A DNA stretch of 64,000 nt from a candidate division WOR-3 bacterium. Lineage in GTDB: Bacteria > Hydrothermota > 32-111. The stretch covers positions 192,001-256,000 of the forward strand of contig JBBFKX010000002.1 of NCBI GenBank assembly GCA_037481815.1. Reading direction: 5' to 3'. Position 1 is the stretch's first letter. Every line of letters begins with the position of its first letter. Both the position numbers and the translations under genes were made by a program. The notes beneath the pieces were generated by a model, which was not told the DNA's origin, searched no databases, and saw only the letters and a list, made by a program, of their open reading frames with translations. This document shows, piece after piece, positions 4,732 through 46,703 of the stretch.

Positions 4732-4739
4732 CTTATAAC

Positions 4740-4843
4740 TCCTTCTTCCATCCTGACTTTACAGTCGGCACCGTAATTTCAACGGTTCTGCTTTCGCTCG
4801 CGGGCTTTACCGCCGATCGGGATTTTCACCCAGCCCCGAAGGA
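4740..4843 (-). promoter_or_regulatory. FMN riboswitch (RFN element), compact form
   Basis: Minus strand TCCTTCGGGGCTGGGTGAAAATCCCGATCGGCGGTAAAGCCCGCGAG...CCGACTGTAAAGTCAGGATGGAAGAAGGA matches the RFN consensus; lies upstream of ribD. Confidence 0.95.
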
Positions 4844-4849
4844 AATAGT

Positions 4850-5437: not shown

Positions 5438-5465
5438 TTGACTTTTTTTGATATTGAATTATGAT
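5438..5465 (+). promoter_or_regulatory. sigma70 promoter of the diguanylate cyclase gene
   Basis: TTGACT-N16-TATGAT, 10 nt before ATG 5476; argues against the 5461 start. Confidence 0.6.
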
Positions 5466-5475
5466 TATTTTACAA

Positions 5476-6624
5476 ATGAAAGAAGATAAAGGGAATATTT
5501 TTTACACTGAATTCAACTATGATAAACTCTATTGGCTGATAAATATAAGAACATTACTTTTAATCTGTTTAACTATAATTTTTTCAATTTTATCAATATT
5601 TAAAATCAAAATAAATAACACATTTTCTCCTGAATATCTACTTTTTTGGCAGATGATAGCACTTGTGATCAATTTTTTACTCTATATTGATCTAAAATAT
5701 CTTCAAAACAATAAACACCTGATTATGAACGAGGAAAATTTTAAATATATTGGAATGATTCAAATCGATTTTGATATCCTTTATACGATAGTTACAATTT
5801 TTCTTTCAGGAGGAATAAAATCTCCACTTCTTTTTCTTTTCATTTATAACATAATCACTTCAAACTTTTTGATTCAGGATCGAAATACTTTCTTTTACAC
5901 CCTTATATTAATTGTGCTGATTTTCATCTCTGAATTCAGATTTAGATTCAAGGACACATTCCCATACATAGAGTATAAAACTTTGGAAAAGTTTGAAAAT
6001 ATGGTCTTGATCTCACTCATATTCTTTTTCCTCTTCTACCTTTCAAAATATGTATCGGAAAAACTGAAACAGAAACAGGAAGAGTTGAATAAACTATATC
6101 AGGAAACATACAAGTTATCAATAACTGATAGGTTGACAGGCCTTTATGATCAGACATATTTTAGAGTGAGTGCTTCTGACGCTATTGAGATCGCAAAAAT
6201 CAACAACAATAAACTTGCAATTGTAATGTTTGATATCGATAATTTTAAGGAGTTCAATGATACAAACGGACATCTTATGGGTTCACGCGCATTGGTTCAA
6301 ATAGCACAGATCATGAAAAAAACTTTTAGAAAAACTGACATCCTTGGTAAATATGGAGGAGACGAGTTTATAATACTCTTAAAAGATATAGATGAAAATT
6401 ATATAACATTTGTTCTTGAGAGATTCAAAAGTCAGATAGAAAATTTTAACTTTAATCCCGAAACATCAAGAGTTTCCCATTTGACTATTTCCATAGGTGT
6501 TTCGTTTTTTCCCAAAGATGGTGAAAACCTCGATACACTTATCGATAAAACTGATAAGGCATTATACACTGCAAAAAATTTAGGAAAAAATAATCTATTC
6601 ATTTTTGATGATAGTAAAAAGTAG
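5476..6624 (+). CDS. Membrane-bound diguanylate cyclase (PilS-like TM region + GGDEF)
   Basis: About 5-6 TM segments, then TDRLTGL, DIDNFK.FND.NGH, RKTD I-site and intact GGDEF; ORF track start is 5461. Confidence 0.92.
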   Translation: MKEDKGNIFYTEFNYDKLYWLINIRTLLLICLTIIFSILSIFKIKINNTFSPEYLLFWQMIALVINFLLYIDLKYLQNNKHLIMNEENFKYIGMIQIDFDILYTIVTIFLSGGIKSPLLFLFIYNIITSNFLIQDRNTFFYTLILIVLIFISEFRFRFKDTFPYIEYKTLEKFENMVLISLIFFFLFYLSKYVSEKLKQKQEELNKLYQETYKLSITDRLTGLYDQTYFRVSASDAIEIAKINNNKLAIVMFDIDNFKEFNDTNGHLMGSRALVQIAQIMKKTFRKTDILGKYGGDEFIILLKDIDENYITFVLERFKSQIENFNFNPETSRVSHLTISIGVSFFPKDGENLDTLIDKTDKALYTAKNLGKNNLFIFDDSKK

Positions 6625-8085
6625 TTTTACAATATCAGGATCATAAATTTTTCCAACATTTTCGTTGAAAATTCCTTCAATATGTTTTTCAGTCAACTTA
6701 AAAATATCTTTAAAAACACAATATTCTCCAGCAACTCTAACTATTCTTGAACCAACTGGAATTTTTTTACCGACGAGTTTGTTAAAACCAGTTCCATCAT
6801 AGTTTTCGTAAAGAAATTTAATAATTTTTTGAGCATCTTCAAGCATCACAAGAGGTGCTATAATATCAGCACCTGATACGATCGCCTGTTTTATCTCTAA
6901 AGATTTTTCAGGGTCGAAGTATGTTGGTGCATTGAAGATCTCCTTTGGTTTACTCAAAAGTCCAAGGAGATGCAAAAGAGCCGAATACTGTATATCCCTT
7001 ATTTCATCTTCAGAAAGTTCCATCCTTTTTGCAATTTTTACAGAAAGTGCTGAAACTTTTTCACTGTGTTTTTTTAAACCAGGGAATATCCTATCCTCAA
7101 GATATAAAAAGGCGATCAAGGATTCAAGATAACTTCTTCTTGAATCCTCAAAAAATTTTGCAGATGCAAGAGAATTCGTGATCACGATCCTTGCGATTTC
7201 AAAAAGAACCATTTTTTCATCTTTAATTTTCAATGAATCTATTTCAAATATAAAAACTCCTATGATCAGTTTTCCTAAAAATATCGGCAAAGTAACCGTT
7301 GAGTTGTCCTTTATACCTTTAAGAGAGTACCCGATATTAATTTTGGAAGATTTGAAATATTCAATAAACTGGTTCCTGTTGATTTTGGTTCCAACTGGAA
7401 ACTCTTTTTCAAAATTTCTTTCCTTTTTAACAACGAAATCTCCACTTTTTTCATCAAAAAGAAGAAGAACCAAAGAGTGGGGATTAAAAATCGTATCAAG
7501 TTTTTCAAAAATGTTTAAAGCGTTAGATTCAAAAGATTTGATCACAGAGATCATTTCAGAAAAAGTTTTGAGTTCTTCAATGCTTTTTAAAAGTTCTTTT
7601 AGATAATTATCAAGTTTCTCTTTCTGTTCGGATACCAATTGGTTCGTGTTTAACAGTTCCTCATTCATTTTTTGAATGTCAGCACTCAATCTTTCTTTAT
7701 CAAGTAATAATTGCCTCTTCTCATAAGCGTTTCTGATAACAAGTAACATCGTATCTGCTGTGAATGGCTTTGAGACAAAATCGTAAGCACCACTCCTGAT
7801 GCATGTCATCGCAAGATTAATATCTATTGTTGCTGAGATAACGATTATAGGTGAAAAAGGATTTTCAATCGAAAAATTTGTTATGAAGTCAAAAACATCG
7901 GTTCCTGGCAACGACAGATCCACTATTATTAGAGAATATTGATTCAAAGATAACAGATTTTTAAATTGTACCCCATCGGTTGCAATATCCACATCAACAG
8001 CATCTTTCTTTTCATACTCGATGATCTTTTTTAAAAAATTGGCTACTGTGATTTCGCCATCAGCTACTAAAATTTTTTCTTTCAT
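6595..8085 (-). CDS. Response regulator: REC + coiled coil + GAF-like + degenerate HD-GYP
   Basis: REC (IIVDLSLP, GAYDFVSKPF); HD-GYP-like HSEKV...LLHLLG...ENYDGTGF...IPVGSRIV with catalytic residues altered. Confidence 0.8.
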   Translation of the reverse strand: MKEKILVADGEITVANFLKKIIEYEKKDAVDVDIATDGVQFKNLLSLNQYSLIIVDLSLPGTDVFDFITNFSIENPFSPIIVISATIDINLAMTCIRSGAYDFVSKPFTADTMLLVIRNAYEKRQLLLDKERLSADIQKMNEELLNTNQLVSEQKEKLDNYLKELLKSIEELKTFSEMISVIKSFESNALNIFEKLDTIFNPHSLVLLLFDEKSGDFVVKKERNFEKEFPVGTKINRNQFIEYFKSSKINIGYSLKGIKDNSTVTLPIFLGKLIIGVFIFEIDSLKIKDEKMVLFEIARIVITNSLASAKFFEDSRRSYLESLIAFLYLEDRIFPGLKKHSEKVSALSVKIAKRMELSEDEIRDIQYSALLHLLGLLSKPKEIFNAPTYFDPEKSLEIKQAIVSGADIIAPLVMLEDAQKIIKFLYENYDGTGFNKLVGKKIPVGSRIVRVAGEYCVFKDIFKLTEKHIEGIFNENVGKIYDPDIVKLLFTIIKNE

Positions 8086-8086
8086 T

Positions 8087-11000
8087 TTAACTTTTCAAAG
8101 GCAGTTTTATTATAAAAGAGACACCATTTTCTCTGTTAACAGCGAATATTGTCCCATTGTGTTCTTTTATTATATTAAATGAGATTGCAAGACCAAGACC
8201 AGTACCACCGCTTTTTGTTGTAAAAAATGGTGCAAAAATCTTTGAGAGGTTCTCTTCGGGTATTCTGGGACCATCGTTATAGATATCTATAACAAGAAAA
8301 TTATCTTCTTTTTTAATCGAAATCTCAATATGACCATTTTTTACAATCGATTGAATAGCATTCAAAAGTATATTCATAAAAACTTCTATCATCTGTTCTT
8401 CGTCAACCATTATCTCCTGAATATCCTCATTTATATTCACATTCAAAGAAATGTTTGTTTCTTCAAGTTTATTCTTTACCATCTCAACCGCATGGTTTAA
8501 TACATCGAGAATGTTCACTTTTGAAAGGAGTACAGTTTTTGCTTTTGCAAAAGATGTCATATCGTTCACAAGTCTGTCCAATCTTTTAACCTCTTTAATC
8601 ACAAGATCTATTGACTCAGTGAGTATATCATCATCCTTAAGCCGCATCTTCAAAAATTCCATTCCGGTTAAAATTCCTGACAGAGGATTTTTGATCTCGT
8701 GCGCCATACCTGCTGCCATCTGTCCAAGCATCGCAAGATTCTCTTTCGCTTTCAATTCATTCTGAATCTTTTTGATTTCAGAAAGATCCTGAATTATACA
8801 TACGAGTTCAAGATCCTTTTCAAACTTTATAGGTGTAATACTTATACCACAGGGAACGTGTCCTCTCTTTTTACTCTTTAAAATTATCTCATCTCTGAAC
8901 AAAGGTTTTTCACTTTTAATAACATTATCAATTATTCCATTTTTATCCTCAAAAAGATCAAGATAATGCATGTTGAAAATCTCATCGGGTTCGTATTCAC
9001 CAATTTTTAAAAGTGAATTGTTAAAATGTATAATCTTACCATTTTTATCTATGTAAACTACACCAGAAGGTATGTTGTTCAAAATCAGATCGGAAATCTG
9101 TAAATCTTTTGAGGATTCTTCGAATCTTGATATGGCAATGATCGCAGTGTTTGCAAGTGTTTCAAGGAACTGTTTATCCGACTGAGAAAAATATCCACTC
9201 TTTTTGTTATCAACACACAATACCCCTAACGTTCTCCCAAGAAACTTTAAAGGAACATTTATAAGATTCTCTACCCTATAATATTTTGATAATGATTTTA
9301 TCGGTTTAAAATATTCACTTTTGGTTACATCGTTTAAAATCAAAGAGTTCCCTGTTTTATAAACATATCCAGCAGCACTATCTGACATATCTTTTATCTT
9401 TTTCAATTTTTCGATTTCTATGCCCAAAGATGCTTTAAAAACAAGTTTCCCATTCTCCTGAAAAAGAAGTGAGGCATAGGTTCCATCAACAATTTTAACA
9501 GCAGATTCAAGTAGATATTTGAAAAACTCTTCAATGCTTTTCACATATATAAGTTTTTCGGTCAGATTACTGATAATATTATACTGTTTCAACTTTCTTT
9601 CGTTTTCATCAAATAGTAGTGCACTCTCAAATTTGATATAAAGTTCCTGAACTATCGCGTTAAAAGTATAATCGTAAATTTTTGTTTTAAGGTTACGATC
9701 AGAAAAAACGATCAGAAGAAATTTATCCTGTTTGTTAACAAAAATGGGTAAAACGGTTGCATATCGTATCTCTTTTTTGAAAAATTCTTTGCTTATTTTG
9801 GGATCATCAAAAAAGTTTGTAACACTCTGATTTATATCTTGTTCAAAATAATATTTTTTCTTGTTCAAAAGGATATTTTTCAACTGTTCATTTTCGAAGT
9901 ATGTTTCTTTAATTTGGTAACTTTCATCTTCGTTTTTTTCAAGGAGCAATGTCGCTTTACTTTTAAGTAAACTTCCAAGAGTCGTTGTAACTATTTTTGA
10001 TAGAAATTTTAGATTCAAAGAACTTCTTAAACTCGTAAAAATTTTGTACAGAATCGTCAACTGTTCAATCTTGTTTTCCGAGTCCATCTGTAAAAGGAGA
10101 GATTTTATAAAACTTGCTGAATTGTTCGATATTATCTTTACTAGTTCAAAATCTTTATCAGTAAAAGGAATCTTCCCAAACCTTGTCAACATTAAAACTC
10201 CAACGAGTTCTCCTTTAAAAATTATCGGTACACATATTCCCGCCTGTGATTGTTTTTTATAACCTTTTGTGTATTCGATATTGGGAAACTTTAAAAGATC
10301 ATCAAGCATCAAAGGTTCTTTCGTGAGAGCAACTGTTCCAGAAACACCTCTACCGACAATAAAATCTCTCTCCATCAATTCCTTTTCATCTATACCTATC
10401 GCTGAAACAGCTCTTAGTTTCTCCTCTTCTGTTTTTACAAGTATAAAACCCCTATCAGCATTTATCTCTGACATTAAAAATTCAAGAAGATTTCTGAAAC
10501 TCTTTTTATAATCTTTATCCTGTGATAATATCTTTGAAACTTTTAATATCACTTCAAGTTTTTTTAAACTTTCATTCTTCTCTTCATAAAGATAAGATTT
10601 ATCGAATATGTTTCCAACCTGTTCGTAAAATGTCTGTATAAAATCCTTTTTGAATCGGTCATTTGCAACATCTTCATCAAATTCTGTGATTATTTTACCA
10701 AAAACCTTTTTGTTGTATATTATAGGTAAATAAACAACATTTTTTACACTTTTATTAACATTTAATTCATCCAATCTTGAACCATAATAATAAAGTACAT
10801 TTTCATCTCTTAAATTTTTAAAATGATCCAGATACTTATTTTTTATTTTGTTCAACTCAAATGTTGTACCATCAAGTTTAAAATATTCATCTTTTAAAAT
10901 ATCAATATAATAAACATTCTTGGGTTTAAGATTCTTAAAATAGTATTTCAAAACCTGAGGAATTAAAATTTTTATATCAATGTTTGAGGAAAAAAGGTTA

Positions 11001-12034
11001 TTCAAATTGTTTACGATTTCTGTTTTCTTTTGAACAAAGTAATACTCTTCTTCTATCATCTTTTTCTCTGTAATGTCCTCTATCAGAATAACAACCCCAA
11101 CACATCTTCCATTCTCTATCAAAGGATAACCATAAAGGTTTTGAACAAGTTCTTTTTTTAACCTTGTGGAATACCTCTTAACTCCAAGCATTCTTCTCGT
11201 CTTTTTTGTCTCTATTATCTCTGCAAGTATTTTATCGAGTTTCAATTCAAGTAGATCAGGGAAAAGATCGAAAATATTTTTTCCGATCATTTCAGAGTTG
11301 GTGAACTTATATTTTTCCGCTGTGAATTTGTTGAACTTGATTATATTCCCTTCTCTGTCCAGAACAATTATCCCCTGTGCAATAGCATCAAAGACAAGAT
11401 TCTGAATCCTTTTTAAACCTTCTATCTCTTTTGTCCATATCTCCTTTTCCTTGAGATCATAAATTATTACTATGGAATAATCTTCCCACGGAAAAATACT
11501 AACCTTTACAGAGCTGGCATTCCCATTTATATCGTACATTTCTATAAAAAGTTCCTGTTTGGTCTTCTTTTTCAGCGATACTATCGTTTTTTCAAGATGG
11601 TCTGGTAAAACATATTCACTAAAATATGTTGCATTACCTAAATATGTATCTCCATATTTTATCTGAAACGATTGGTTTGAAAGTATAACCTTTAAATCTT
11701 TATCAAGAAAACATACAGAAGAATCTATACTATCAAGGAGTTCTGCAAGGAGGTATATGTCCATTATGGATGAAGTGTTCACTTCACTTTTTAAAAATAT
11801 GATGATCTTTTCATAGTTTGGAAAATTAAAATAAATATATTCACCAGAAGAATTATATGAGAAAATATCCTTTTTAAATTTTACCGATGATAAAAATTTT
11901 TTTATATCAAAATCTTTTTCAACGAATTTCTCTTTCCGGTAATCGGATACCACTCTTCCATCATAGGTTGACAAAATGAATGAAATATTTTTTAATTTTA
12001 AAAAATCAAGAAAAGATGTTAAAACATTTCTCAT
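8087..12034 (-). CDS. Large cytoplasmic multi-PAS/GAF sensor histidine kinase
   Basis: PAS ([26 protein letters not shown]), several GAF repeats (CVPII..LVGVL; NVPL..TLGVL), AHEIKNPL H-box, N/G boxes ([20 protein letters not shown]); no TM segment. Confidence 0.9.
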
Positions 12035-12042
12035 AATCTTCC

Positions 12043-12300
12043 CTATAAATTTATCAGGTTTTCTAAATGCTTCTTCGCATCAGTGTTGTTTTTATCAATT
12101 TCCAGAACCTTTTTAAAACATTCTTTCGCTTTTTCAATATCGTTTATACTTTCGTAAACTATTCCAAGGTTATAATATATATCAGCATCATCGGGAAACA
12201 GGGTTAATCCCTCCTCAAAAATTTTTATCGCTTTTTTGAAGTTCTGGTTCTGGAAATAAAAAAAACCTGCTTCAAGAATTTTTTCTTTATCTGGTTCCAT
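12043..12300 (-). CDS. Small tetratricopeptide repeat protein
   Basis: TPR pattern A.IYYNLG.VY......KA.ECFKKVLEID. Confidence 0.85.
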   Translation of the reverse strand: MEPDKEKILEAGFFYFQNQNFKKAIKIFEEGLTLFPDDADIYYNLGIVYESINDIEKAKECFKKVLEIDKNNTDAKKHLENLINL

Positions 12301-25831: not shown

Positions 25832-28477
25832 TTAATTTATAAAAGTAAATTTTTTCGTTAGAACTCTTTCAGGCAGTTCAACCCTTATGAAATATATTCC
25901 ATTACGAAGTTCAGGATTCAAAATCAACTCAGTTTTGTCCTTAACAAAATAAGAAGAAGTTAAATAAACTAACCTTCCGGAACTATCATAAATTTTAATT
26001 TTAGCAAACACACTTTTATCGGTTATATAATTTATCTTTACCTTCCCGGAAGTGTAAAATTCAAGATGAAATTGAAAATCTTTAAATTCGAGTTTTTCAT
26101 CAAGAGTATAGTAAGGTGAAAACTTTGCAAAGAAAACACCATATTCGTTATCTGAAATAAAAACTCTTTTTGAAAGTGTATCTACCAAAACTTTTTCAAC
26201 TCTGTTATTTGGATAAAAACTTGATATTTCATTAAGTCCTTCAAATGTATATATCCCAAAACCTTTTGTGTTGTTATAACCTACAAGACCATTTTCAATA
26301 AGAGACAACCTGTTCGTTGTTCCAATATTTTTGCTTTCAACAAAAACGGGATTCAAAGGATCTGTGATGTTATATCTTACAATTCCTGAATTTACAGCCG
26401 CAAGATAAAGATTGTTATCTTTTATTTCACAGAAGGATTCATTATAACTTGTTGAGAATAGTGATATTTTTGTAACACCATTTGAAGGATAAGATGTTTT
26501 CATGATATAGATTCCGTTCAGAAGATCGGTTAGATAAAATATAGAATCCACTATAGCGGTTGAGGTATAATATTTAAGAGTTCCCTCACTGAAACTTCCA
26601 GCATTTTCAAACTTATAATCAGATTTGATATTTAAAACATAGAAAACCGATTGGGTTGTCAGAAATATAACATTATCTTTAATATCTAAATCTGAAATAT
26701 TCTGAACAACTTTAAACGAATCTATCAAGGAAGTTGAATTCAGATTAAAAGTGTGTATGGAGTTGTCGGTTACTAAAACAAAAATCGAATCGTTAATCAT
26801 TTTAAATCTTTTGTAGTTACGGCCATCATAATATATCTGTGAAACTTCAATAAGAGTTGTGTCCGAAAGATCAAGTTCATACAAGCCATAAGTTCCTGCA
26901 CAAACCCATACGTTTCCATTTACAAAATCGATATCGTATGTATTCGATAGATCAAAAGTATAAGATTTCAAATTGATATTGTTTGTGTCAGAACAATCTA
27001 TTATGTTCAAAGGATTGTAAACACCATCCGTAGCGATCAAAGAGGATAAAATGTTATAAAATTCTGCTGAGATATGGACCTGCCCTGAAATTTCTGGTGT
27101 AAAGTATGAGAAAGTATCAAAAGTTTCATTTATAAAATTTTTTGTTGTAAAATTGTTATTCGTCCAGTAAAGTTTTGTTGAAAAGAGTGAATCAGAGATA
27201 TTTTTAAAATAAATTTTTCCTTTTAATCCCTTAAAATATTTTCTGCTATTAATATTAAGGTTACCTGTTCTAAAACTGTTACCACCTGCAGGTTTAACTT
27301 CATAAACACAGGAATAGGATAATTCTCCATTGACATAGGTGTAAAGATTCCAGAAAGGTTCAGTGTAATCCCATGTGTTATGTACCTGCACAAGAGTATC
27401 TGTTCCACCATCATCATAACCTATTCCAACAACAGAGTGACCGATATATTCTCCCTGATAGTAATAGTTTAAAACAGCCCAATGCACAGGTCTTATCGAA
27501 TCGATTTCATTTTTTATATATCTATAAAAAAAGGTATCAGAAGTTTGACCATAAACATGTTGTCCTAAAGTAAACGAATATGGATGGTTTGTGTTCGCAA
27601 AAGTTGAATGTGCAGGTTTTATACTGTAAACAGATGTCCCACCTTCGTAAATCGAATCGGTATTCATAAGTATTGCAAGTTGTCTCTGTGTAGAGGGAAC
27701 ATTGTATCTATACGAGCCCAAAACATTATCATACCTTGTAAAGTAATAATCTACAAAATCACCATATCCTCTGGTATCATAATAGGAAAAGATCATAGCA
27801 GAAGATGTTGGAGAACATCCATAGGACCATAGAACAAAAGGAACATCTGGAATATAGTTTGTCGATTTTTTATCAGAAATTTTATATTCTCCTTTTAACA
27901 CCTTTTGCCATTTATCACTTATAACATCATTTTTTTTAAAACCAATTTTTTTGTATGTTTTATAAGTTGCAAGATCGAGAACACCATCTTTGTTTTCATA
28001 AAAGAATCTGCCAAAACCTGCATAGTATAAAGTTTTTCCATCTTCTAAATTGAAATATCGTTTTAATTTTTTCCAGTTTGTTATGAAATATGGGATCCCT
28101 TGTGAATACTCAAGGATCACGTTGTTTTCCTTCCTTGCAGAAATTATGATATAACCAACCCTATCTTTAAATGATAAAATTTCTCCATAAAAATTTTTAT
28201 TTTCAAGATCTTCTATTTGAACTAACAAACTATTAAAATCAACTTTTTCATCATATGAAAAGAAAAACATGTATGCGTAAAGATGATCATCGAGGTATGA
28301 AAGGTATAAAGGTTCTTCATTTAAAATGTACTTTGAATCCAAACTTTTGACTTTTGAAAGAGCAATATTCATGGCAGTTTGAAGATCCACAAAATTATCT
28401 TCGATAACAGGTATTTTAAACTGGGCAAAGATCGATATCGCGATGAGCGGGAACAAAAAAACAAAAAATTTTTTCAT
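25832..28477 (-). CDS. Secreted papain-like cysteine peptidase (C10/C39-like) with beta-propeller/LVIVD-like repeats and T9SS-type CTD
   Basis: Signal peptide; prodomain-like GYIIISA...ILEYS; GCSPTS (Cys), GHSVVGIGY (His), VHNTW (Asn); CTD IKIYDSSGRLV...LRNGIYFIRV...TKKF. Confidence 0.75.
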   Translation of the reverse strand: MKKFFVFLFPLIAISIFAQFKIPVIEDNFVDLQTAMNIALSKVKSLDSKYILNEEPLYLSYLDDHLYAYMFFFSYDEKVDFNSLLVQIEDLENKNFYGEILSFKDRVGYIIISARKENNVILEYSQGIPYFITNWKKLKRYFNLEDGKTLYYAGFGRFFYENKDGVLDLATYKTYKKIGFKKNDVISDKWQKVLKGEYKISDKKSTNYIPDVPFVLWSYGCSPTSSAMIFSYYDTRGYGDFVDYYFTRYDNVLGSYRYNVPSTQRQLAILMNTDSIYEGGTSVYSIKPAHSTFANTNHPYSFTLGQHVYGQTSDTFFYRYIKNEIDSIRPVHWAVLNYYYQGEYIGHSVVGIGYDDGGTDTLVQVHNTWDYTEPFWNLYTYVNGELSYSCVYEVKPAGGNSFRTGNLNINSRKYFKGLKGKIYFKNISDSLFSTKLYWTNNNFTTKNFINETFDTFSYFTPEISGQVHISAEFYNILSSLIATDGVYNPLNIIDCSDTNNINLKSYTFDLSNTYDIDFVNGNVWVCAGTYGLYELDLSDTTLIEVSQIYYDGRNYKRFKMINDSIFVLVTDNSIHTFNLNSTSLIDSFKVVQNISDLDIKDNVIFLTTQSVFYVLNIKSDYKFENAGSFSEGTLKYYTSTAIVDSIFYLTDLLNGIYIMKTSYPSNGVTKISLFSTSYNESFCEIKDNNLYLAAVNSGIVRYNITDPLNPVFVESKNIGTTNRLSLIENGLVGYNNTKGFGIYTFEGLNEISSFYPNNRVEKVLVDTLSKRVFISDNEYGVFFAKFSPYYTLDEKLEFKDFQFHLEFYTSGKVKINYITDKSVFAKIKIYDSSGRLVYLTSSYFVKDKTELILNPELRNGIYFIRVELPERVLTKKFTFIN

Positions 28478-37527: not shown

Positions 37528-37950
37528 TTACTCTGTTGTTCCAGGTGTTAAAATAAGATCAACCAAAGTATCTTTTCCAAAACCTGTTATCTTGTAATCC
37601 TGTCCTGCTGCTGCTCCACCATCAGGGTTTGGTGTTTCATAACCAACAATACCCTGTGCATTAGCTTCAGCTAACCAAACATATGCTCCCCCATCACCTA
37701 CTGCCTGTGTATATGGATTTTTGAAGTTCTGTGGGAGGTAACTTGCTGTAACATCTGTCTGTGGATAAACACCACCTGAATCTACAGAAATTGTCTCAAT
37801 TGCAACCTGGAAAGTGTGCATGTTTGCTTTGACTGAAGATATTTTTGCTTTGTCAATGATCTGAACAAAGTTTGGTATCGCTATTGCAGCAAGAATACCA
37901 ATGATGACCACGACGATCATGAGTTCGATAAGTGTAAAACCTTTTTTCAT
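37528..37950 (-). CDS. pilA: Type IVa pilin (probable major pilin)
   Basis: MKKG|FTLIELMIVVVIIGILAAIAIPNF; strong AGGAGG SD and its own terminator. Confidence 0.9.
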   Translation of the reverse strand: MKKGFTLIELMIVVVIIGILAAIAIPNFVQIIDKAKISSVKANMHTFQVAIETISVDSGGVYPQTDVTASYLPQNFKNPYTQAVGDGGAYVWLAEANAQGIVGYETPNPDGGAAAGQDYKITGFGKDTLVDLILTPGTTE

Positions 37951-38483: not shown

Positions 38484-38500
38484 AGCAAAAAATATTCCAA
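38484..38500 (-). promoter_or_regulatory. Putative sigma54 promoter of pilin 2
   Basis: TTGGAATATTTTTTGCT = GG-N10-GC. Confidence 0.7.
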
Positions 38501-39733: not shown

Positions 39734-41072
39734 TATTGTAATATCTGATTTTTCTATAAAGAGTTGATAGATTTATTCCAAGTGCCACACTTGCCTGTTT
39801 TTTATCGTAGTTAAAATATTTTAAAGTATCCTCAATAAGTTTTTTTTCAACATCTTCGATTTTCTGTGGAACAAAAACTGCCTGATCGGTTTGAACTTTT
39901 AAACTCGAAAGTAGTGGAATATCCGATTTTTTTATTTCAAAATTATCTTTTATCACTATTATCCTTTCAACTATATTCATAAGTTCTCTTACATTACCAG
40001 GCCAGGAATATTCGGTTAAAACATTATAAACTTCCGGGTCAACCTTTTTTATAGTTTTGCCCATCTTTTTTGAATAGTAGTCAACATAGTAATCAAAAAT
40101 CTTTGGAATATCTTTCTTCCTTTCTCTTAAAGGCGGAAGATCTATCCTTACAACATTCAACCTGTAAAAAAGATCCAATCTGAATCTATTATTTTTTACT
40201 TCTTCATCTATATTTTTATTGGTTGCTGATATTATTCTGACATCAACAGGTATCGGTTCTGTTGAACCAACTGGAACAACCTCTTTTTCCTGTAAAACTC
40301 TCAGAAGTTTTGCCTGAAGAACAAAGTCCATCTCAGATATCTCGTCTAGAAAAAGTGTTCCCATATCAGCGACCTTGATTAGTCCATCCTTATTCGTGTA
40401 TGCACCTGTAAAAGCACCTTTTTTGTAACCGAAAAGTTCACTTTCTATAAGATTCGGATTCAATGCAGCACAGTTGAAAGAAACAAAGTTTTTGTCTCTT
40501 CTTTTTGAGTTGTTGTGTATCATCCTTGCGATCAACTCTTTTCCTGTTCCACTCTCTCCAGTTATCAGAACCGTTGAGTCAGTTTTTGAAATATCGTTTA
40601 AGTTCTTTAAAATAATTTTGATCTTTTCATCCTCTCCAATAAAATCTGATGGTATTTGAAAATTTTCCCTTTCTTTAAGATAGATGTAGTTTAACTTCTC
40701 ATCCCTATTCTTCAAAGCCCTATCCACAATCTCGACAAGATAATCAGAATCCTCAACCTTTTCGAGAAAATCGAAAGCACCATTTCTGAGAGCATCGAGC
40801 AAAAGTTCCTGTGTTTTTCCAAATGCGGTTATAAGGATAACATTGACGATTGGATCTATCTCCCTTAGCCGTTTTAAAAGTTCTATTCCCGACATCTCTT
40901 TCATCTTTATATCAGATATCACAAGATCGATGTTCTCGTTTTTGAATTTTTCCAAAGCATCCTCGGGGCTTGTTGTAAATGTGGTTTTGTATCCCAAATT
41001 TTTTAGTTTGTAATCAAGAACTTTACATCTGTTCAGATCATCATCAACTATAAGAATATGATACTTATTCAA
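39720..41072 (-). CDS. pilR: sigma54-dependent response regulator (PilR)
   Basis: REC, GESGTGKE, GAFTGA, WPGNVREL, Fis HTH; paired with pilS in the pil locus. Confidence 0.85.
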   Translation of the reverse strand: MNKYHILIVDDDLNRCKVLDYKLKNLGYKTTFTTSPEDALEKFKNENIDLVISDIKMKEMSGIELLKRLREIDPIVNVILITAFGKTQELLLDALRNGAFDFLEKVEDSDYLVEIVDRALKNRDEKLNYIYLKERENFQIPSDFIGEDEKIKIILKNLNDISKTDSTVLITGESGTGKELIARMIHNNSKRRDKNFVSFNCAALNPNLIESELFGYKKGAFTGAYTNKDGLIKVADMGTLFLDEISEMDFVLQAKLLRVLQEKEVVPVGSTEPIPVDVRIISATNKNIDEEVKNNRFRLDLFYRLNVVRIDLPPLRERKKDIPKIFDYYVDYYSKKMGKTIKKVDPEVYNVLTEYSWPGNVRELMNIVERIIVIKDNFEIKKSDIPLLSSLKVQTDQAVFVPQKIEDVEKKLIEDTLKYFNYDKKQASVALGINLSTLYRKIRYYNIKDL

Positions 41073-42606
41073 TGTTCCTCCTGAATTTCAAAGTAAATTC
41101 AGTATAACCTTTTTCGCTTTTAAAATCAATCTCTCCTGAATGTTCATCTTTCACGATCTTGTAAACTATCGAAAGTCCAAGTCCAGTTCCTTTCGTCTTG
41201 TTCGTTGTAAAAGGTTGAAATATTTTTGCTTTTAAATCTTGATCAATACCTTTTCCATTATCGATGAACTTTAAAACATCGTATCCATTTTCCCGCTCAT
41301 ACACAACCTTCACAACACCATTTTCAAGACCATCTATTGCATCAAAACTGTTATCAAGAAGGTTTATAAAAACCTGTTTAAGACCTGTTCTTTCAGCAAA
41401 AATCATAGCATTTTCAAAATTTTCAAATCTTACCTTTTTATATTTTTCATCACACAGAAAAAGTTCTCCTAAAAACTCCTTTAAATTTATAAGTGTTGGT
41501 TCGATTTTTCTTACTCGAGCATATTCAAGAAACTGGTTCACAAGTAAGTTCAACCTTTCGACCTCTTCGAAAAGAATGTTGAACATCGGATGAGACCTGT
41601 ATTCATCTTTTAGTTCCCCAAGAAGAATCCTGGCACTCTCTTTTATGTTCGAAACAGGATTTCTTATCTCATGTGCAAGTGATGCTGAAAGTTGTCCAAT
41701 CGTTTCAAGTTTGTCCTTTATTCTCAACCTTCTCTCATATTCGACTATATCGGTTATGTCGTTGATGAAAATCATTATAAATGTTTCACCACTCTTCTCG
41801 TTGTAAATTTTATCGACCTGCAACTGGTAAGTTTTATTTTCTCTTGTAAAATTTTTTCTCTCTCCCTTCTGAACAAGATCAAAAATCTCCTGATCAACAT
41901 TTTTAAACTCGATATTTGAAGATATGTTTTTAAAAAGTTCTCTACTTTTTTTGTTGAAATCTGTTATTAAATAATTCTTATCAAGAAGGATTATCGTGTA
42001 CGGTATATGATCTAAAAGGTCTTTCAACTTCGCCGAATATTTAAAAAGTTCAATCTTCCTTGCCTGTAACCTTTCAGAAAGAAAACCACTCACTGCAGCC
42101 ACAAGAAAGAAGGAAAGAATATAGATATACACTCTTATGATTAACTCTTCAAGATTGACCTGTGGCTGTGGTAAAGGTCGATAGGGTGATATTATAAAAC
42201 CAAAATACTCTCCAAATACAAAAAATGAATATGCAAAGGTTGATAGTATCGCAGTTAAAAAACTACCTTTCGCGAAAATAAAAAAACTTGCTGCGATGAT
42301 GTTTACAAAATATAAAATTTCAAAAAAATTGTTCGATCCGCCAGTAAAATAAACTATACCAACGATCAGAAGGTTATCATAGATTATCTGAACATAATTG
42401 TAGAAAGTATAAAATTTTTTTGTTCTGAGTAAAATCAAAATAAAAACACTGAAAAGGATAGTTAAAATCAGTATCGAAAAATGTGGAATAAGATTGAATT
42501 TCATTCCCCTTAAACGGGAAAATATCCCAAGTAGAGGAAGTGTCAATACTATGAAAAACCTTATAAGGATATACCAGAAATATTTTTTGTCTATATCTTT
42601 AAACAT
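41065..42606 (-). CDS. pilS: Membrane sensor histidine kinase (PilS)
   Basis: 6 TM with QIIYD..TGG, PAS, AHEIRNP, GTGLGL; follows pilC. Confidence 0.85.
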   Translation of the reverse strand: MFKDIDKKYFWYILIRFFIVLTLPLLGIFSRLRGMKFNLIPHFSILILTILFSVFILILLRTKKFYTFYNYVQIIYDNLLIVGIVYFTGGSNNFFEILYFVNIIAASFFIFAKGSFLTAILSTFAYSFFVFGEYFGFIISPYRPLPQPQVNLEELIIRVYIYILSFFLVAAVSGFLSERLQARKIELFKYSAKLKDLLDHIPYTIILLDKNYLITDFNKKSRELFKNISSNIEFKNVDQEIFDLVQKGERKNFTRENKTYQLQVDKIYNEKSGETFIMIFINDITDIVEYERRLRIKDKLETIGQLSASLAHEIRNPVSNIKESARILLGELKDEYRSHPMFNILFEEVERLNLLVNQFLEYARVRKIEPTLINLKEFLGELFLCDEKYKKVRFENFENAMIFAERTGLKQVFINLLDNSFDAIDGLENGVVKVVYERENGYDVLKFIDNGKGIDQDLKAKIFQPFTTNKTKGTGLGLSIVYKIVKDEHSGEIDFKSEKGYTEFTLKFRRNIE

Positions 42607-44938: not shown

Positions 44939-46702
44939 CTATTCCATTACAGCTGTTTCTCTTATAACCTCTTCTATAGTAGTTAAACCCTTTTTTACTT
45001 TTATCAAAGCATCATCTCTTAGAGTTTTCATACCCTCTTTCTTCGCCTGCTCTCTCAGTTCGGCAGTTGATGCTCTTGCTAAAATCATCTCTCTGAGTTT
45101 TGGAGAGATCGGCATAACCTCTGTTACAGCCAACCTTCCCTTATAACCCTTTCCACCACAAAAATCACAACCATCTCCCTTTTCATAAACCTGATGACCT
45201 TTCAAAATCATAGGATCAATTCCATAATCCCTTAAGGTTTCCTCATCGTAAACAATCGGTTTTCTACACTTTTCACACACCTTTCTGAGCAACCTCTGCG
45301 CCTGTATCAGATTCAAAGCTGCTGACACAAGAAATGGCTCTATTCCCATATCTATCAATCTGTTGACTGTTGAAGGTGAATCGTTTGTGTGAATCGTTGA
45401 AACAACAAGGTGACCTGTGAGTGCTGCTCTTATCGCGATTTCCGCTGTTTCTGTATCTCTTATCTCTCCAACGAGTATCACGTTTGGTGATTGTCTCAAA
45501 AATGCTCTTAAAGCGGATGCAAAAGTGAAGCCAATATCCGGGTTGACCTGCACCTGATTTATTCCGTAAAGATTATACTCTATTGGATCCTCTGCTGTCA
45601 TTATCTGTATATCCGGGGTATTCAGAGATGATAGAGCAGAATATAGTGTTGTTGATTTTCCCGAACCTGTTGGACCTGTGACAAGAACTATTCCGTAAGG
45701 TTTATGTATGGCTGCCTGGAATTTTTCGAGGTTGTCCGGCTCAAATCCAAGTTTAGTCATCTCAAGTTGTAATGCTGATTTATCGAGTATTCTCATAACA
45801 ACCTTTTCACCAAAAAGCACAGGTATAATTGAAACTCTGAGGTCTATCTGTTTATCGTAGACCTTCAACCTTATTCTTCCATCCTGCGGGATGTTATGGA
45901 CTGCAATATCAAGTTCTGACATCAATTTTATTCTTGAAACTATTCCTGCCTTCAGTTCGTATGGGGGTCTTATAAGTTCAGTTAAAACTCCATCAACTCT
46001 CAGTCGAACTCTCAAATAATTTTCAAATGGTTCGATATGTATATCGGACGCTTTCAATTCAACAGCTTTTGTAAAAATATAGTTTACAATTTTAACAACC
46101 GGCTTGTCCTCCGCTGCGGAAGCACCATCGATAACTATCTCTTTCGAATCAGCTTCTCCAACAACCTCTACATCATCGTCTCCAAGAGTAATATCCTCAT
46201 CTATGTCAAGATTTACTTCTTCGTCAATATCAAGATCTATATCTATATCATCCTCTTCTGAGAACTCACTCACCTGAGTTTGTGCTTCCCTGTATTTACC
46301 GAGTGCTTTCTGGAGTGAATTTTCAGTTGTAACAACAGGAATGACATCGAGTCCAGTTTTGAATTTAACATCATCTATAGCGTTGAGATTTGCAGGATTC
46401 ACCATCGCAAGAAAGAGCATATTCCCGGTTTTCTTGTATGGGATCATCATATGTTTTGTTGCGAGTTCCTCTGGTATAAGATTCAATATTTGAATGGGAA
46501 TCTCTTCTTTATCAATGAGAATAAATTCGGTTTTAAAATATTTTGCAAGAAATTTTGCGATTTTCTCTTCTGTGGAAAAACCTAAACTCACAACCGACTT
46601 TATAAAAGATTCACCGGTCTCTTTCTGTCTTTCAAATACCTTTCCAACCTGTTCCCTGTTCAAAATTCCTGCTGAAGTGAAAAGATTTGCAAGTGTTTGC
46701 AT
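44939..46702 (-). CDS. pilB: Extension ATPase PilB (copy 2, degenerate MshEN)
   Basis: ASDIHIEP, PQDGR, GPTGSGKST, TGHLV, tetracysteine, GYKGR. Confidence 0.9.
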   Translation of the reverse strand: MQTLANLFTSAGILNREQVGKVFERQKETGESFIKSVVSLGFSTEEKIAKFLAKYFKTEFILIDKEEIPIQILNLIPEELATKHMMIPYKKTGNMLFLAMVNPANLNAIDDVKFKTGLDVIPVVTTENSLQKALGKYREAQTQVSEFSEEDDIDIDLDIDEEVNLDIDEDITLGDDDVEVVGEADSKEIVIDGASAAEDKPVVKIVNYIFTKAVELKASDIHIEPFENYLRVRLRVDGVLTELIRPPYELKAGIVSRIKLMSELDIAVHNIPQDGRIRLKVYDKQIDLRVSIIPVLFGEKVVMRILDKSALQLEMTKLGFEPDNLEKFQAAIHKPYGIVLVTGPTGSGKSTTLYSALSSLNTPDIQIMTAEDPIEYNLYGINQVQVNPDIGFTFASALRAFLRQSPNVILVGEIRDTETAEIAIRAALTGHLVVSTIHTNDSPSTVNRLIDMGIEPFLVSAALNLIQAQRLLRKVCEKCRKPIVYDEETLRDYGIDPMILKGHQVYEKGDGCDFCGGKGYKGRLAVTEVMPISPKLREMILARASTAELREQAKKEGMKTLRDDALIKVKKGLTTIEEVIRETAVME

Positions 46703-46703
46703 A

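What the first reader, a model, noticed from the sequence alone, without database searches (positions are those of the whole stretch)
5476..6624. Diguanylate cyclase with a PilS-like membrane sensor: a candidate pilin-sensing c-di-GMP circuit
Seen: the DGC TM region aligns by eye with PilS of this window: WLINIR vs WYILIR in TM1, and QIDFDILYTIVTIFLSGGIKSPLLFLFIYNII vs QIIYDNLLIVGIVYFTGGSNNFFEILYFVNII, including the intramembrane Arg and Asp. GGDEF and the RxxD I-site are intact. Known: P. aeruginosa PilS senses inner-membrane pilin through TM contacts, and MshEN domains bind c-di-GMP. Inference: this DGC could turn the membrane pilin pool into c-di-GMP, read by the MshEN-bearing PilB (46704..48434), giving a second loop parallel to PilSR. 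This TM fold also occurs in unrelated sensors, so the ligand is not proven.
Basis: partly seen in the sequence, partly recalled or inferred. Interest (0 to 1): 0.8.

Follow-up and report, generated by a model that had tools for sequence, protein, structure and literature searches.

The report
Membrane-sensor c-di-GMP cyclase, PilS/RegB-type
This gene encodes an apparently active c-di-GMP synthase whose six-helix membrane sensor is a real but distant relative of the pilin sensor PilS, yet nothing found here ties it to pilin, and its constant gene partner is a response regulator with an HD-GYP domain.

Summary
Window 5476..6624 (+) encodes a 382-aa protein with a Pfam 6TM_PilS membrane domain, an intact GGDEF domain and an RxxD I-site. 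It aligns with this window's PilS far above chance.

The pilin-sensing reading is not supported.
In RegB the matching Arg and loop bind ubiquinone.
- Family profiles and the best tree put this domain outside the PilS clade, nearest to other GGDEF and HD-GYP proteins. An AU test does not reject a PilS origin.
- No pilus gene flanks the cyclase in any of 11 related loci. All 11 have a response-regulator gene directly 3' of it. That regulator is REC plus degenerate HD-GYP in this family, and REC plus canonical HD-GYP in the one complete sister-lineage locus.

Output through MshEN ATPases is plausible. The genome has no PilZ, and PilB1 keeps the MshEN c-di-GMP motif. The input signal is unknown.

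It has noted six-helix membrane cyclases with single-pass partners in other phyla.

The parts
5476..6624 (+). Diguanylate cyclase gene (382 aa from Met at 5476; the ORF is open from an upstream ATG at 5461)
   Evidence: start by alignment with 6 of 6 homologs
5518..6081 (+). 6TM_PilS-family membrane sensor domain (residues 20-207 of the 387-aa frame)
   Evidence: Pfam PF25323, E 1.1e-10. The AF2 model shows six helices plus a beta hairpin between helices 5 and 6.
6121..6594 (+). GGDEF catalytic domain (residues 221-378), with RxxD I-site at 6328..6339 and GGDEF motif at 6355..6369
   Evidence: Pfam E 1e-40; motifs invariant in 17 of 17 relatives; closest solved chains are diguanylate cyclases
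6595..8085 (-). Response regulator: REC, an unassigned middle region, and a degenerate HD-GYP domain. It is convergent with the cyclase gene and overlaps its 3' end by 30 nt.
   Evidence: Pfam Response_reg and HD_5. HDxGK reads HLLGL and HHExxDGxGYP reads YENYDGTGFN. The position is conserved in related loci.
8087..12034 (-). 1315-aa cytoplasmic PAS/GAF histidine kinase, the presumed partner of the response regulator
   Evidence: Pfam; conserved upstream of the regulator in 5 of 5 scanned related loci
12043..12300 (-). 85-aa TPR protein, part of the conserved block
   Evidence: orthologs carry TPR repeats
41065..42606 (-). PilS, the only other 6TM_PilS protein of the genome. It is the comparator, not part of the module.
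46704..48434 (-). PilB1, candidate c-di-GMP receptor (inferred). The MshEN double motif sits at residues 4-56 (48267..48425).
   Evidence: motif definition from PMC5013675
37528..38471 (-).
   Evidence: Pfam N_methyl; N-termini MKKG/FTLIELMIVVVIIGIL with Glu5

Best explanation
The gene encodes a membrane-embedded, signal-regulated diguanylate cyclase. Six transmembrane helices of the PilS/RegB superfamily form the sensor. In the model the sixth helix runs on without a break as a long linker into a catalytically competent GGDEF domain that has product feedback through its RxxD I-site. The sensor probably reads a cue inside or at the membrane, through a conserved polar cluster: TM1 Trp and Arg, TM3 Asp-x-Asp, the GGxxS loop and the TM4 Tyr-Asn. 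Which cue it reads is unknown, and nothing found here singles out pilin. The cyclase works as one half of a conserved pair with a response regulator that carries an HD-GYP domain. That domain is canonical in the sister lineage. In this family it is degenerate and under a 1315-aa PAS/GAF kinase, so here the partner is more likely a regulator or c-di-GMP effector than a phosphodiesterase. The c-di-GMP made is most plausibly read by MshEN-type ATPases, which are the only recognisable receptors in the genome. Shown: domains, motifs, homology, gene neighbourhood and genome census. Inferred: enzyme activity, the pairing, the receptor and the existence of a membrane ligand.
For: - Domains and motifs.
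- Predicted structure: six helices, with residues 173-216 forming one continuous helix (TM6 plus linker) into the GGDEF domain; mean pLDDT 80.6.
- The sensor is modular. Of the 34 nearest TM-domain hits among 1.84 billion representatives, outputs include PAS-less kinases, PAS kinases, GGDEF, GAF-GGDEF, GAF-HD-GYP and a cupin.
- Family members with known ligands differ from one another: PilS senses pilin (passages), RegB binds ubiquinone and GrtK senses ammonia.
- Gene pairing in family f1: REC plus HD_5 directly 3' of the cyclase is Pfam-confirmed in 6 genomes (the window, and 5 loci). Same-sized ORFs sit at that position in 3 more loci.
- Gene pairing in the sister genus g7: 3 of 3 loci have a REC gene directly downstream in tandem. 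The one complete copy has canonical HDIGK and HHERYDGKGYP.
- The pairing survives a change from convergent to tandem orientation, while the upstream flank differs among genera.
- Genome census: 5 GGDEF, 1 EAL, 4 HD_5, 0 PilZ and 4 MshEN. An intact double MshEN motif occurs in PilB1 and in one further ATPase.
Against: - No ligand, enzyme activity or protein contact has been tested.
- The synteny evidence comes from two related families only, so part of it may be inherited gene order.
- In this family the HD-GYP partner has lost the HD and HHE metal ligands (6 of 6 aligned orthologs), so a simple synthase/hydrolase pair does not apply here.
- Some facts fit the pilin reading and are not explained by mine. 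TM4 Asn130 is shared by 15 of 15 family cyclases and 10 of 10 family PilS proteins, but by only 2 of 37 other rows.
- The AU test does not reject a common origin of the two (p 0.215).
- Where both genes are on one contig they lie 36.5 kb apart (G000, G004, G005) or 11 kb apart (G006).
- Four other GGDEF proteins (one reading AGDEF) could equally feed the MshEN ATPases.
Confidence: 0.55

Rival explanations
1. One reading: the TM domain binds the N-terminal helix of membrane-stored pilin as PilS does. The cyclase would then convert the pilin pool into c-di-GMP, which PilB1 reads through its MshEN domain, forming a loop parallel to PilSR.
For: - Real homology to PilS.
- The genome has exactly two 6TM_PilS proteins, PilS and this one. 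Twelve of the 14 genomes of the family show the same pair. The other two are G003, whose cyclase only the protein search finds, and G009, with a single contig-end match.
- TM4 Asn is shared only by family cyclases (15 of 15) and family PilS (10 of 10), and the loop Ser matches the PilS clade (15 of 18 rows).
- The AU test does not reject cyclase plus PilS as one clade (p 0.215).
- In G006 the cyclase is four genes from pilB1.
- Both pilins have the classic FTLIE N-terminus.
- PilB1 keeps the MshEN motif and no PilZ was found.
- Precedents: PilA-PilS, and PilA to PleC to PleD to c-di-GMP in Caulobacter (passages of PMC6058289 and PMC7196804).
Against: - The cited Arg, Asp and GG are superfamily-wide and serve ubiquinone binding in RegB.
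- The best tree has a PilS clade (SH-aLRT 99) without the cyclases.
- The family cyclase HMM scores the family PilS TM regions at only 8-20 bits, with one row scoring nothing, against 27-61 bits for the non-orthologous metagenome hits.
- hhalign gives 72 against family PilS and 168 against other GGDEF/HD-GYP proteins.
- The loop Pro is present in 11 of 15 cyclases and 0 of 18 PilS-clade rows.
- No pilus gene lies within about 6.5 kb in any of the 8 f1 loci, and none was seen in the shorter g7 contigs.
- 6TM_PilS proteins occur in 113 of 272 genomes of the phylum, but the cyclase form occurs only in family f1 and genus g7.
- No sigma-54-like element was found upstream of the cyclase gene.
Confidence: 0.12
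2. RegB-like redox sensing: the TM pocket binds a membrane quinone, and the cyclase reports the redox state of the quinone pool.
For: - The only NCBIfam models hit by the TM part are ActS/PrrB/RegB (E 1.2e-4) and RegB (E 2.6e-4), and they score better than for the window's PilS TM region (4e-3 and 0.1).
- The TM1 Arg and the GGxx-P loop are conserved.
- The PAS-less kinases that score well against the cyclase profile carry GGxENPF-type loops.
Against: - RegB's ubiquinone-binding Asn is Ser in 15 of 15 cyclases, its Phe is Leu in 11 of 15, and the Gln38 equivalent is Leu, Val or Ile in 15 of 15 (residues from PMC3000548).
- The NCBIfam scores (19-21 bits) lie far below the cut-offs (350 and 570).
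- No NuoH and no cytochrome bd were found in a genome that is 95% complete. Three UbiA-family genes leave quinone synthesis open.
Confidence: 0.08
3. The TM domain senses nothing specific. It anchors, dimerises or localises the cyclase, and regulation comes from the REC-HD-GYP partner and its PAS/GAF kinase by protein contact, as RpfG contacts GGDEF proteins in Xanthomonas.
For: - The pairing with a REC(-HD-GYP) gene is conserved in 11 of 11 loci.
- The GGDEF domain keeps the DxD motif that RpfG-type contacts use (sequence; passages of PMC3749722).
- The passages of PMC6058289 list, among its references, a paper on the role of the PilS TM domain in polar targeting.
Against: - Polar residues buried in TM helices (W25, R30, D103, D105, S121, N130) are invariant in 15 of 15 family cyclases although overall TM identity falls to 34%. 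That is more constraint than an anchor needs.
- The GYP motif needed for RpfG-type contacts is itself degenerate in this family.
Confidence: 0.15

Closest known systems
PilS of Pseudomonas aeruginosa (PilS-PilR pilin autoregulation)
   Same: N-terminal six-helix membrane domain of the same Pfam family (PF25323), with no periplasmic domain. Shares the TM1 W...R, the TM3 Asp and the GG loop.
   Different: The output is GGDEF, not PAS-HisKA-HATPase. The gene is not beside pilR or pilus genes. The TM domain lies outside the PilS clade in the best tree and carries a loop Pro absent from 18 of 18 PilS-clade rows. The PilS residues that contact PilA could not be checked: Kilmury and Burrows 2016 is not held.
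RegB/PrrB/ActS redox sensor kinases (Rhodobacter and relatives)
   Same: Same TM superfamily. The TM1 Arg and the GGxx-P- loop between TM3 and TM4 are kept. These are the only named NCBIfam models hit by the TM part.
   Different: The ubiquinone-binding Asn, Phe and Gln are replaced. There is no kinase core and no redox Cys. Scores are far below the family cut-offs.
Caulobacter PilA to PleC to PleD pathway
   Same: It shows that a membrane pilin pool can be turned into c-di-GMP (passages of PMC7196804).
   Different: There the sensor is a two-helix periplasmic-domain kinase, and the cyclase is a separate response regulator. Here sensor and cyclase are one protein, and pilin input is unsupported.
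Xanthomonas RpfG (REC-HD-GYP) with GGDEF proteins, and P. aeruginosa PA2572 (inactive YN-GYP variant)
   Same: A REC-HD-GYP regulator is functionally coupled to GGDEF proteins, with pilus motility as output. There is a precedent for a catalytically dead HD-GYP variant acting as a regulator (passages of PMC3749722).
   Different: Coupling here is inferred from gene order only. In this family the HD, HHE and GYP motifs are all altered. No PilZ adaptor was found in the genome.
GrtK of Burkholderia glumae
   Same: A 6TM_PilS-family sensor reported to have a ligand unrelated to pili, namely ammonia (passages of PMC12918730).
   Different: It is a histidine kinase from a different phylum. No direct sequence comparison was made here.
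MshE/PilB MshEN c-di-GMP receptors (Vibrio cholerae MshE)
   Same: PilB1 residues 4-27 match the strict 24-residue motif. A 5-residue spacer and a second motif copy follow.
   Different: The second copy starts with Lys instead of Arg and has Thr at one hydrophobic position. Binding is untested. The tandem paralog PilB2 has lost both motifs.

Membership tests
GGDEF diguanylate cyclase (active enzyme) | GG(D/E)EF active-site motif and the upstream DxD/N..D metal and GTP-binding residues | tested here: met
   YGGDEF and FDIDNFKEFND are present and invariant in 17 of 17 relatives. Pfam E 1e-40.
GGDEF diguanylate cyclase (active enzyme) | RxxD I-site five residues before GGDEF | tested here: met
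   R290-K-T-D293, then ILGKY, then GGDEF. R and D are invariant in 17 of 17.
GGDEF diguanylate cyclase (active enzyme) | Synthesis of c-di-GMP from GTP | not testable with these tools
   Needs an enzyme assay.
Pfam PF25323 6TM_PilS | Score above the curated gathering threshold | tested here: met
   41.9 bits against 27. The whole-genome search gives 43.9 bits.
Pfam PF25323 6TM_PilS | Six transmembrane helices without a large periplasmic domain | tested here: met
   AF2 model: helices 4-41, 52-78, 86-111, 117-132, 136-151 and 173-216, with loops of 12 residues or fewer apart from one beta hairpin. This is a prediction only.
PilS sensu stricto (pilin-sensing kinase of type IVa pili) | PAS-HisKA-HATPase transmitter that acts on PilR | tested here: not met
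   The only cytoplasmic domain is GGDEF.
PilS sensu stricto (pilin-sensing kinase of type IVa pili) | Gene beside pilR or pilus genes | tested here: not met
   The window's pilus cluster starts about 28 kb away. No pilus gene lies within about 6.5 kb in 8 of 8 f1 loci.
PilS sensu stricto (pilin-sensing kinase of type IVa pili) | TM domain groups with bona fide PilS proteins | tested here: inconclusive
   The best tree has a PilS clade of 18 rows (SH-aLRT 99) that excludes the cyclases. The AU test does not reject cyclase plus family PilS as one clade (p 0.215).
PilS sensu stricto (pilin-sensing kinase of type IVa pili) | Direct intramembrane binding of the pilin N-terminus | not testable with these tools
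   Needs two-hybrid, cross-linking or reconstitution experiments.
RegB/PrrB/ActS redox kinases | GGXXNPF loop with Asn and Phe essential for ubiquinone, plus TM1 Arg31 and Gln38 (PMC3000548) | tested here: not met
   The loop reads GGIKSPL. Ser replaces Asn in 15 of 15 cyclases and Leu replaces Phe in 11 of 15. Arg is kept, and the Gln position is Leu, Val or Ile.
RegB/PrrB/ActS redox kinases | NCBIfam equivalog cut-off | tested here: not met
   21 and 19.4 bits against cut-offs of 350 and 570.
MshEN c-di-GMP receptor (applied to PilB1, 46704..48434) | Two 24-residue RLGxx(L/V/I)(L/V/I)xxG(L/V/I)(L/V/I)xxxxLxxxLxxQ motifs joined by 5 residues | tested here: inconclusive
   Motif I is strict at residues 4-27 and the spacer is 5 residues. 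Motif II at residues 33-56 starts with K and has T at one hydrophobic position.
HD-GYP phosphodiesterase (applied to the neighbour, 6595..8085) | HDxGK and HHExxDGxGYP motifs (PMC3749722) | tested here: not met
   The window protein reads HLLGL and YENYDGTGFN. The same losses occur in 6 of 6 aligned family orthologs. The g7 counterpart keeps both motifs.

The most novel reading that the evidence does not exclude
A one-protein pilin-pool sensor. In this reading a PilS-derived six-helix domain reads membrane-stored pilin and answers directly with c-di-GMP. The MshEN domain of the pilus extension ATPase PilB1 reads that signal, in a bacterium where no PilZ was found. The cyclase's fixed partner, a dead HD-GYP response regulator, would bridge the signal to the pilus motors in an RpfG-like complex. 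This would be a post-translational pilin feedback loop beside the transcriptional PilSR loop. The lineage-specific TM4 Asn shared by cyclase and PilS would mark the common pilin-binding site.
Probability: 0.1. Interest if true: 0.75.

Novelty: new member of a known kind. Interest (0 to 1): 0.33.

Why it matters
Membrane-embedded sensor domains without periplasmic parts are among the least understood inputs of c-di-GMP signalling. This work shows that the PilS/RegB six-helix module is a portable sensor. It is joined to kinases, cyclases, HD-GYP domains and even a cupin.

It also defines a small, clean test case. The organism has a 1.6-Mb genome with five GGDEF proteins, no PilZ found, and MshEN ATPases as its only recognisable receptors. 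The cyclase always comes with a REC-HD-GYP partner.

If the ligand of this branch were found, it would say how one fold reads pilin, quinone or ammonia. As it stands, the finding is an uncharacterised member of a known class, not a demonstrated pilin circuit.

Tried and rejected
- Complex prediction of the cyclase TM domain (residues 1-212, 17-row alignment) with mature pilin 37528..37950. The verdict was 'no answer' with score 0.00 and the controls were not run. It is neither evidence for nor against binding.
- ESM Atlas look-up of the TM part. It gave weak, mixed hits (MASE2, 6TM_PilS, MASE11, MASE6/7; scores 0.90-0.93), and the method has not been measured for parts of proteins. Not used.
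- Source names for 10 of the nearest hits. Only generic names came back.
- Genome-contig scan with a TM-only alignment (after one search found no conserved stretch). Of 76 pattern matches, 7 were relatives, all of the same family. No distant 6TM-GGDEF contexts were gained.
- NCBIfam hit no PilS-named model with either TM part at E up to 1. The RegB hits therefore cannot be weighed against a PilS score.
- Quinone test. It is inconclusive: no NuoH and no cytochrome bd, but three UbiA-family genes.
- Sigma-54 promoter pattern. There were 23 matches against 14.0 expected, and none lies upstream of the cyclase. The sigma-70-like site at 5438..5465 is only a consensus match (24 found against 18.8 expected).
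- Adjacent single-pass membrane partner, a lead from earlier scan notes. The 231-233-aa ORF upstream of the cyclase in two relatives looks by eye like a lipoprotein, with a signal peptide and a Cys. It gave no tblastn match in this genome.
- Kilmury and Burrows 2016 is not held. What is said about PilS-PilA contacts rests on citing passages and recall.
- Literature. A search for PilS + diguanylate cyclase + transmembrane + pilin found 18 papers, of which 16 were listed by title and abstract start. None describes a PilS-type membrane cyclase. A search for 6TM_PilS / PF25323 / 'PilS-like transmembrane' found 1 paper, on GrtK.
Full report
**What is there**

The ORF 5461..6624 (+) gives 387 aa.

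Pfam finds GGDEF at residues 221-378 (E 1e-40). It also finds PF25323, the 'PilS-like transmembrane domain', at residues 20-207 (E 1.1e-10, 41.9 bits, cut-off 27). The PilS of the window (41065..42606, -) has the same TM family plus HisKA and HATPase_c.

The local alignment score of 125 was reached by none of 1000 full shuffles (maximum 92) and none of 1000 block shuffles that keep the local hydrophobic pattern (maximum 115). A profile of 13 family cyclases matches a profile of 13 family PilS proteins with 96.8% probability (E 2.7e-10, 175 columns).

The catalytic side looks competent. FDIDNFKEFND, YGGDEF and the RKTD I-site five residues upstream are present and invariant in 17 of 17 relatives. 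The nearest solved chains are all diguanylate cyclases, and all 46 of them match only from residue 186 on, so the membrane part has no solved relative by sequence.

An AlphaFold2 model built on 17 sequences (mean pLDDT 80.6) shows six helices, a short beta hairpin between helices 5 and 6, and a sixth helix that runs on unbroken (173-216) into the GGDEF domain.

**How specific is the likeness to PilS?**

PF25323 is not a pilin-sensor family. A paper that uses it describes it as covering PilS, RegB and related kinases, and reports a member, GrtK, that senses ammonia (passages of PMC12918730).

A full HMMER search with the TM part against 1.84 billion representatives gave only 35 hits at E up to 0.001. 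The best hit outside the protein's own cluster is another 6TM-GGDEF protein. The 34 hits scanned carry kinases without PAS, kinases with PAS, GGDEF, GAF-GGDEF, GAF-HD-GYP and a cupin. The module is portable.

- TM1 Trp in 59 of 60 rows and TM1 Arg in 57 of 60.
- TM3 Asp (D105) in 62 of 62.
- The two loop Gly in 62 and 61 of 62.

In RegB the matching Arg31 and the GGXXNPF loop between TM3 and TM4 bind ubiquinone (passages of PMC3000548). These residues mark a conserved pocket, not a pilin site.

The only named NCBIfam models hit by the TM part are ActS/PrrB/RegB and RegB (E 1.2e-4 and 2.6e-4). They lie far below their cut-offs but score better than for the window's own PilS TM region. The RegB quinone residues are not kept: Asn is Ser in 15 of 15 cyclases, Phe is Leu in 11 of 15, and the Gln38 position is Leu, Val or Ile. 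The protein is neither a RegB nor a PilS in the strict sense.

Family-specific HMMs separate the groups:
- The cyclase HMM scores this family's PilS TM domains at 8-20 bits, with one row scoring nothing. It scores the non-orthologous metagenome hits at 27-61 bits.
- The PilS HMM scores PAS-kinases from elsewhere at 64-108 bits, and the cyclases at 13-33 bits or nothing.

hhalign scores for the cyclase profile are 72 against family PilS, 115 against the rest of the PilS clade, 139 against the PAS-less kinase clade and 168 against the nearest GGDEF/HD-GYP rows. The PilS clade scores 194 against the PAS-less clade.

These comparison rows were picked by likeness to the cyclase, which favours it. 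Even so, they show that many proteins with other outputs are closer to it than PilS is.

A quick IQ-TREE tree of 62 rows has a PilS clade of 18 rows (SH-aLRT 99) without the cyclases and a cyclase clade of 15 rows (98). Six of 68 sequences were dropped beforehand because their matched TM stretch was shorter than 170 residues. The deep forks are weak, in effect a three-way split. An AU test does not reject cyclases plus family PilS as one clade (delta lnL 17.3, p 0.215), so a PilS origin is not excluded.

Two single positions pull in opposite directions:
- The loop Pro is present in 11 of 15 cyclases and in 29 of 29 non-PilS rows, but in 0 of 18 PilS-clade rows.
- The TM4 Asn is present in 15 of 15 cyclases and 10 of 10 family PilS proteins, but in only 2 of 37 other rows.

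**Distribution and neighbours**

The genome holds exactly two 6TM_PilS proteins, PilS and this cyclase. It is 1.58 Mb in 20 contigs and 95% complete. Twelve of the 14 genomes of its family show the same pair. One more has the cyclase only by protein search, and one has a single contig-end match.

In 272 genomes of the phylum, 113 have a 6TM_PilS match. The cyclase form is confined to this family (12 of 13 other genomes) plus a weaker sister form in one genus of the next family (3 of 3). That sister genus also has PilS. The other genus of that family has PilS fragments, and no cyclase was found there (genomes 84-87% complete). Co-occurrence with pili therefore says little.

Gene order says more. 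Of 9 loci fetched from other genomes of the family, I listed the ORFs around the cyclase in 8. In all 8 the cyclase gene is followed, convergently and with overlapping 3' ends, by an ORF of about 1490 nt, then one of about 3950 nt, one of 255 nt and one of about 695 nt.

I gave Pfam 40 of the 85 listed ORFs. In 5 of 5 loci scanned these are REC+HD_5, a PAS/GAF histidine kinase of 1315-1337 aa, a TPR protein and TrkA, as in the window. The upstream flank differs among genera:
- The riboflavin operon in this genus.
- plsC-lytB-rpsA in G006.
- DUF58 (with a BatA-like gene in one locus) in two others.
- lepA in another.

No pilus gene lies within about 6.5 kb in any of the 8. In G006 the cyclase block abuts the plsC-lytB-rpsA-pyrG-pilB1-pilB2 string, four genes from pilB1. 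In this genus the distance to PilS is 36.5 kb.

In the sister genus the cyclase is followed in tandem by a REC gene in 3 of 3 loci. Two of these are cut by contig ends. The complete one is REC-HD-GYP with canonical HDIGK and HHERYDGKGYP. The pairing of this cyclase with a REC-HD-GYP gene thus survives a change of orientation and of flanks.

In the window's family the HD-GYP domain is degenerate in 6 of 6 aligned orthologs (motif definitions from passages of PMC3749722):
- HDxGK reads HL(L/I)GL.
- HHE reads (Y/F)EN.
- GYP reads G-FN or G(L/I/M)P.

The same review describes RpfG, a REC-HD-GYP regulator that contacts GGDEF proteins and through them the pilus motors. It also describes PA2572, an inactive YN-GYP variant with a regulatory role.

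**Output**

The genome has 5 GGDEF proteins (one reading AGDEF), 1 EAL, 4 HD_5, no PilZ and 4 MshEN domains.

- PilB1 (46704..48434) has the strict 24-residue MshEN motif at residues 4-27, a 5-residue spacer and a second copy that starts with Lys and has one Thr at a hydrophobic position.
- A second ATPase elsewhere in the genome has both copies strict.
- PilB2 and a MshEN-T2SSE-REC fusion have lost the motifs (motif from passages of PMC5013675).

MshEN ATPases are thus the only recognisable c-di-GMP receptors. That makes an effect on pili plausible for any of the cyclases, not for this one in particular.

**Verdict**

This is a real, apparently active membrane-sensor diguanylate cyclase. It belongs to a separate, lineage-restricted branch of the PilS/RegB six-helix sensor superfamily and is paired with a REC-HD-GYP regulator.

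It is not excluded either. I put it at about 0.1.

The architecture is already labelled by Pfam in public data, but I found no paper on it. It does hold notes on six-helix membrane GGDEF cyclases paired with single-pass membrane partners in other phyla. I found no such partner gene here.

Noticed in passing
window 4736..4847 (-): FMN riboswitch (Rfam RF00050, 112 bits) ahead of the ribD-ribE-ribBA-ribH-nusB string. It leaves about 600 bp of AT-rich spacer before the cyclase gene.
   Followed up: partly
window 6595..8085 (-): This REC protein has an unassigned 200-residue middle region and an HD-GYP domain that has lost the HD, HHE and GYP signatures in 6 of 6 aligned family orthologs. It is a candidate non-enzymatic regulator or c-di-GMP effector.
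   Followed up: partly
window 44939..48434 (-): There are two tandem PilB paralogs. PilB1 keeps the MshEN c-di-GMP motif and PilB2 has lost both copies. The pair is also present in G006 (L028).
   Followed up: partly
G000:C1:202326-205831 (L062 4326..7831): A paralogous REC-HD_5 protein (475 aa) sits directly upstream of a MshEN-T2SSE ATPase fused to a C-terminal REC domain (663 aa). A HisKA protein, a sigma-54 activator and a hybrid PAS kinase follow. HD-GYP-type regulators thus recur next to pilus-type ATPases in this genome.
   Followed up: partly
G000:C1:755143-756825 (L063 5140..6825): A stand-alone MshEN-T2SSE ATPase (561 aa) has both c-di-GMP motif copies strict. No pilus or secretion genes were recognised among the eight neighbouring ORFs scanned; they include a helicase, a histidine phosphatase and a PEBP-family protein.
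   Followed up: partly
window 38484..38499 (-): A sigma-54-like -24/-12 element (TGGAAT-N5-TTGCT, 2 mismatches) lies just upstream of the second pilin gene. Window-wide the pattern gives 23 matches against 14 expected.
   Followed up: no
window 25832..28477 (-) and 54004..58728 (-): Two large proteins of 881 and 1574 aa. The first has a Peptidase_C39-like domain and a type IX secretion C-terminal sorting tail. The second has only a CarboxypepD_reg hit and a weak FlgD_ig hit.
   Followed up: no
TM alignment column of cyclase Asn130 (window about 5848..5850): The TM4 Asn is shared by 15 of 15 family cyclases and 10 of 10 family PilS proteins but by only 2 of 37 other superfamily rows, where His is usual. 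The cause is unknown.
   Followed up: partly
L025 9196..9894 (-), L027 9224..9916 (-): A 231-233-aa ORF with a signal peptide and a Cys (lipoprotein-like by eye) lies between ribD and the cyclase in two relatives. It gave no tblastn match in this genome.
   Followed up: partly
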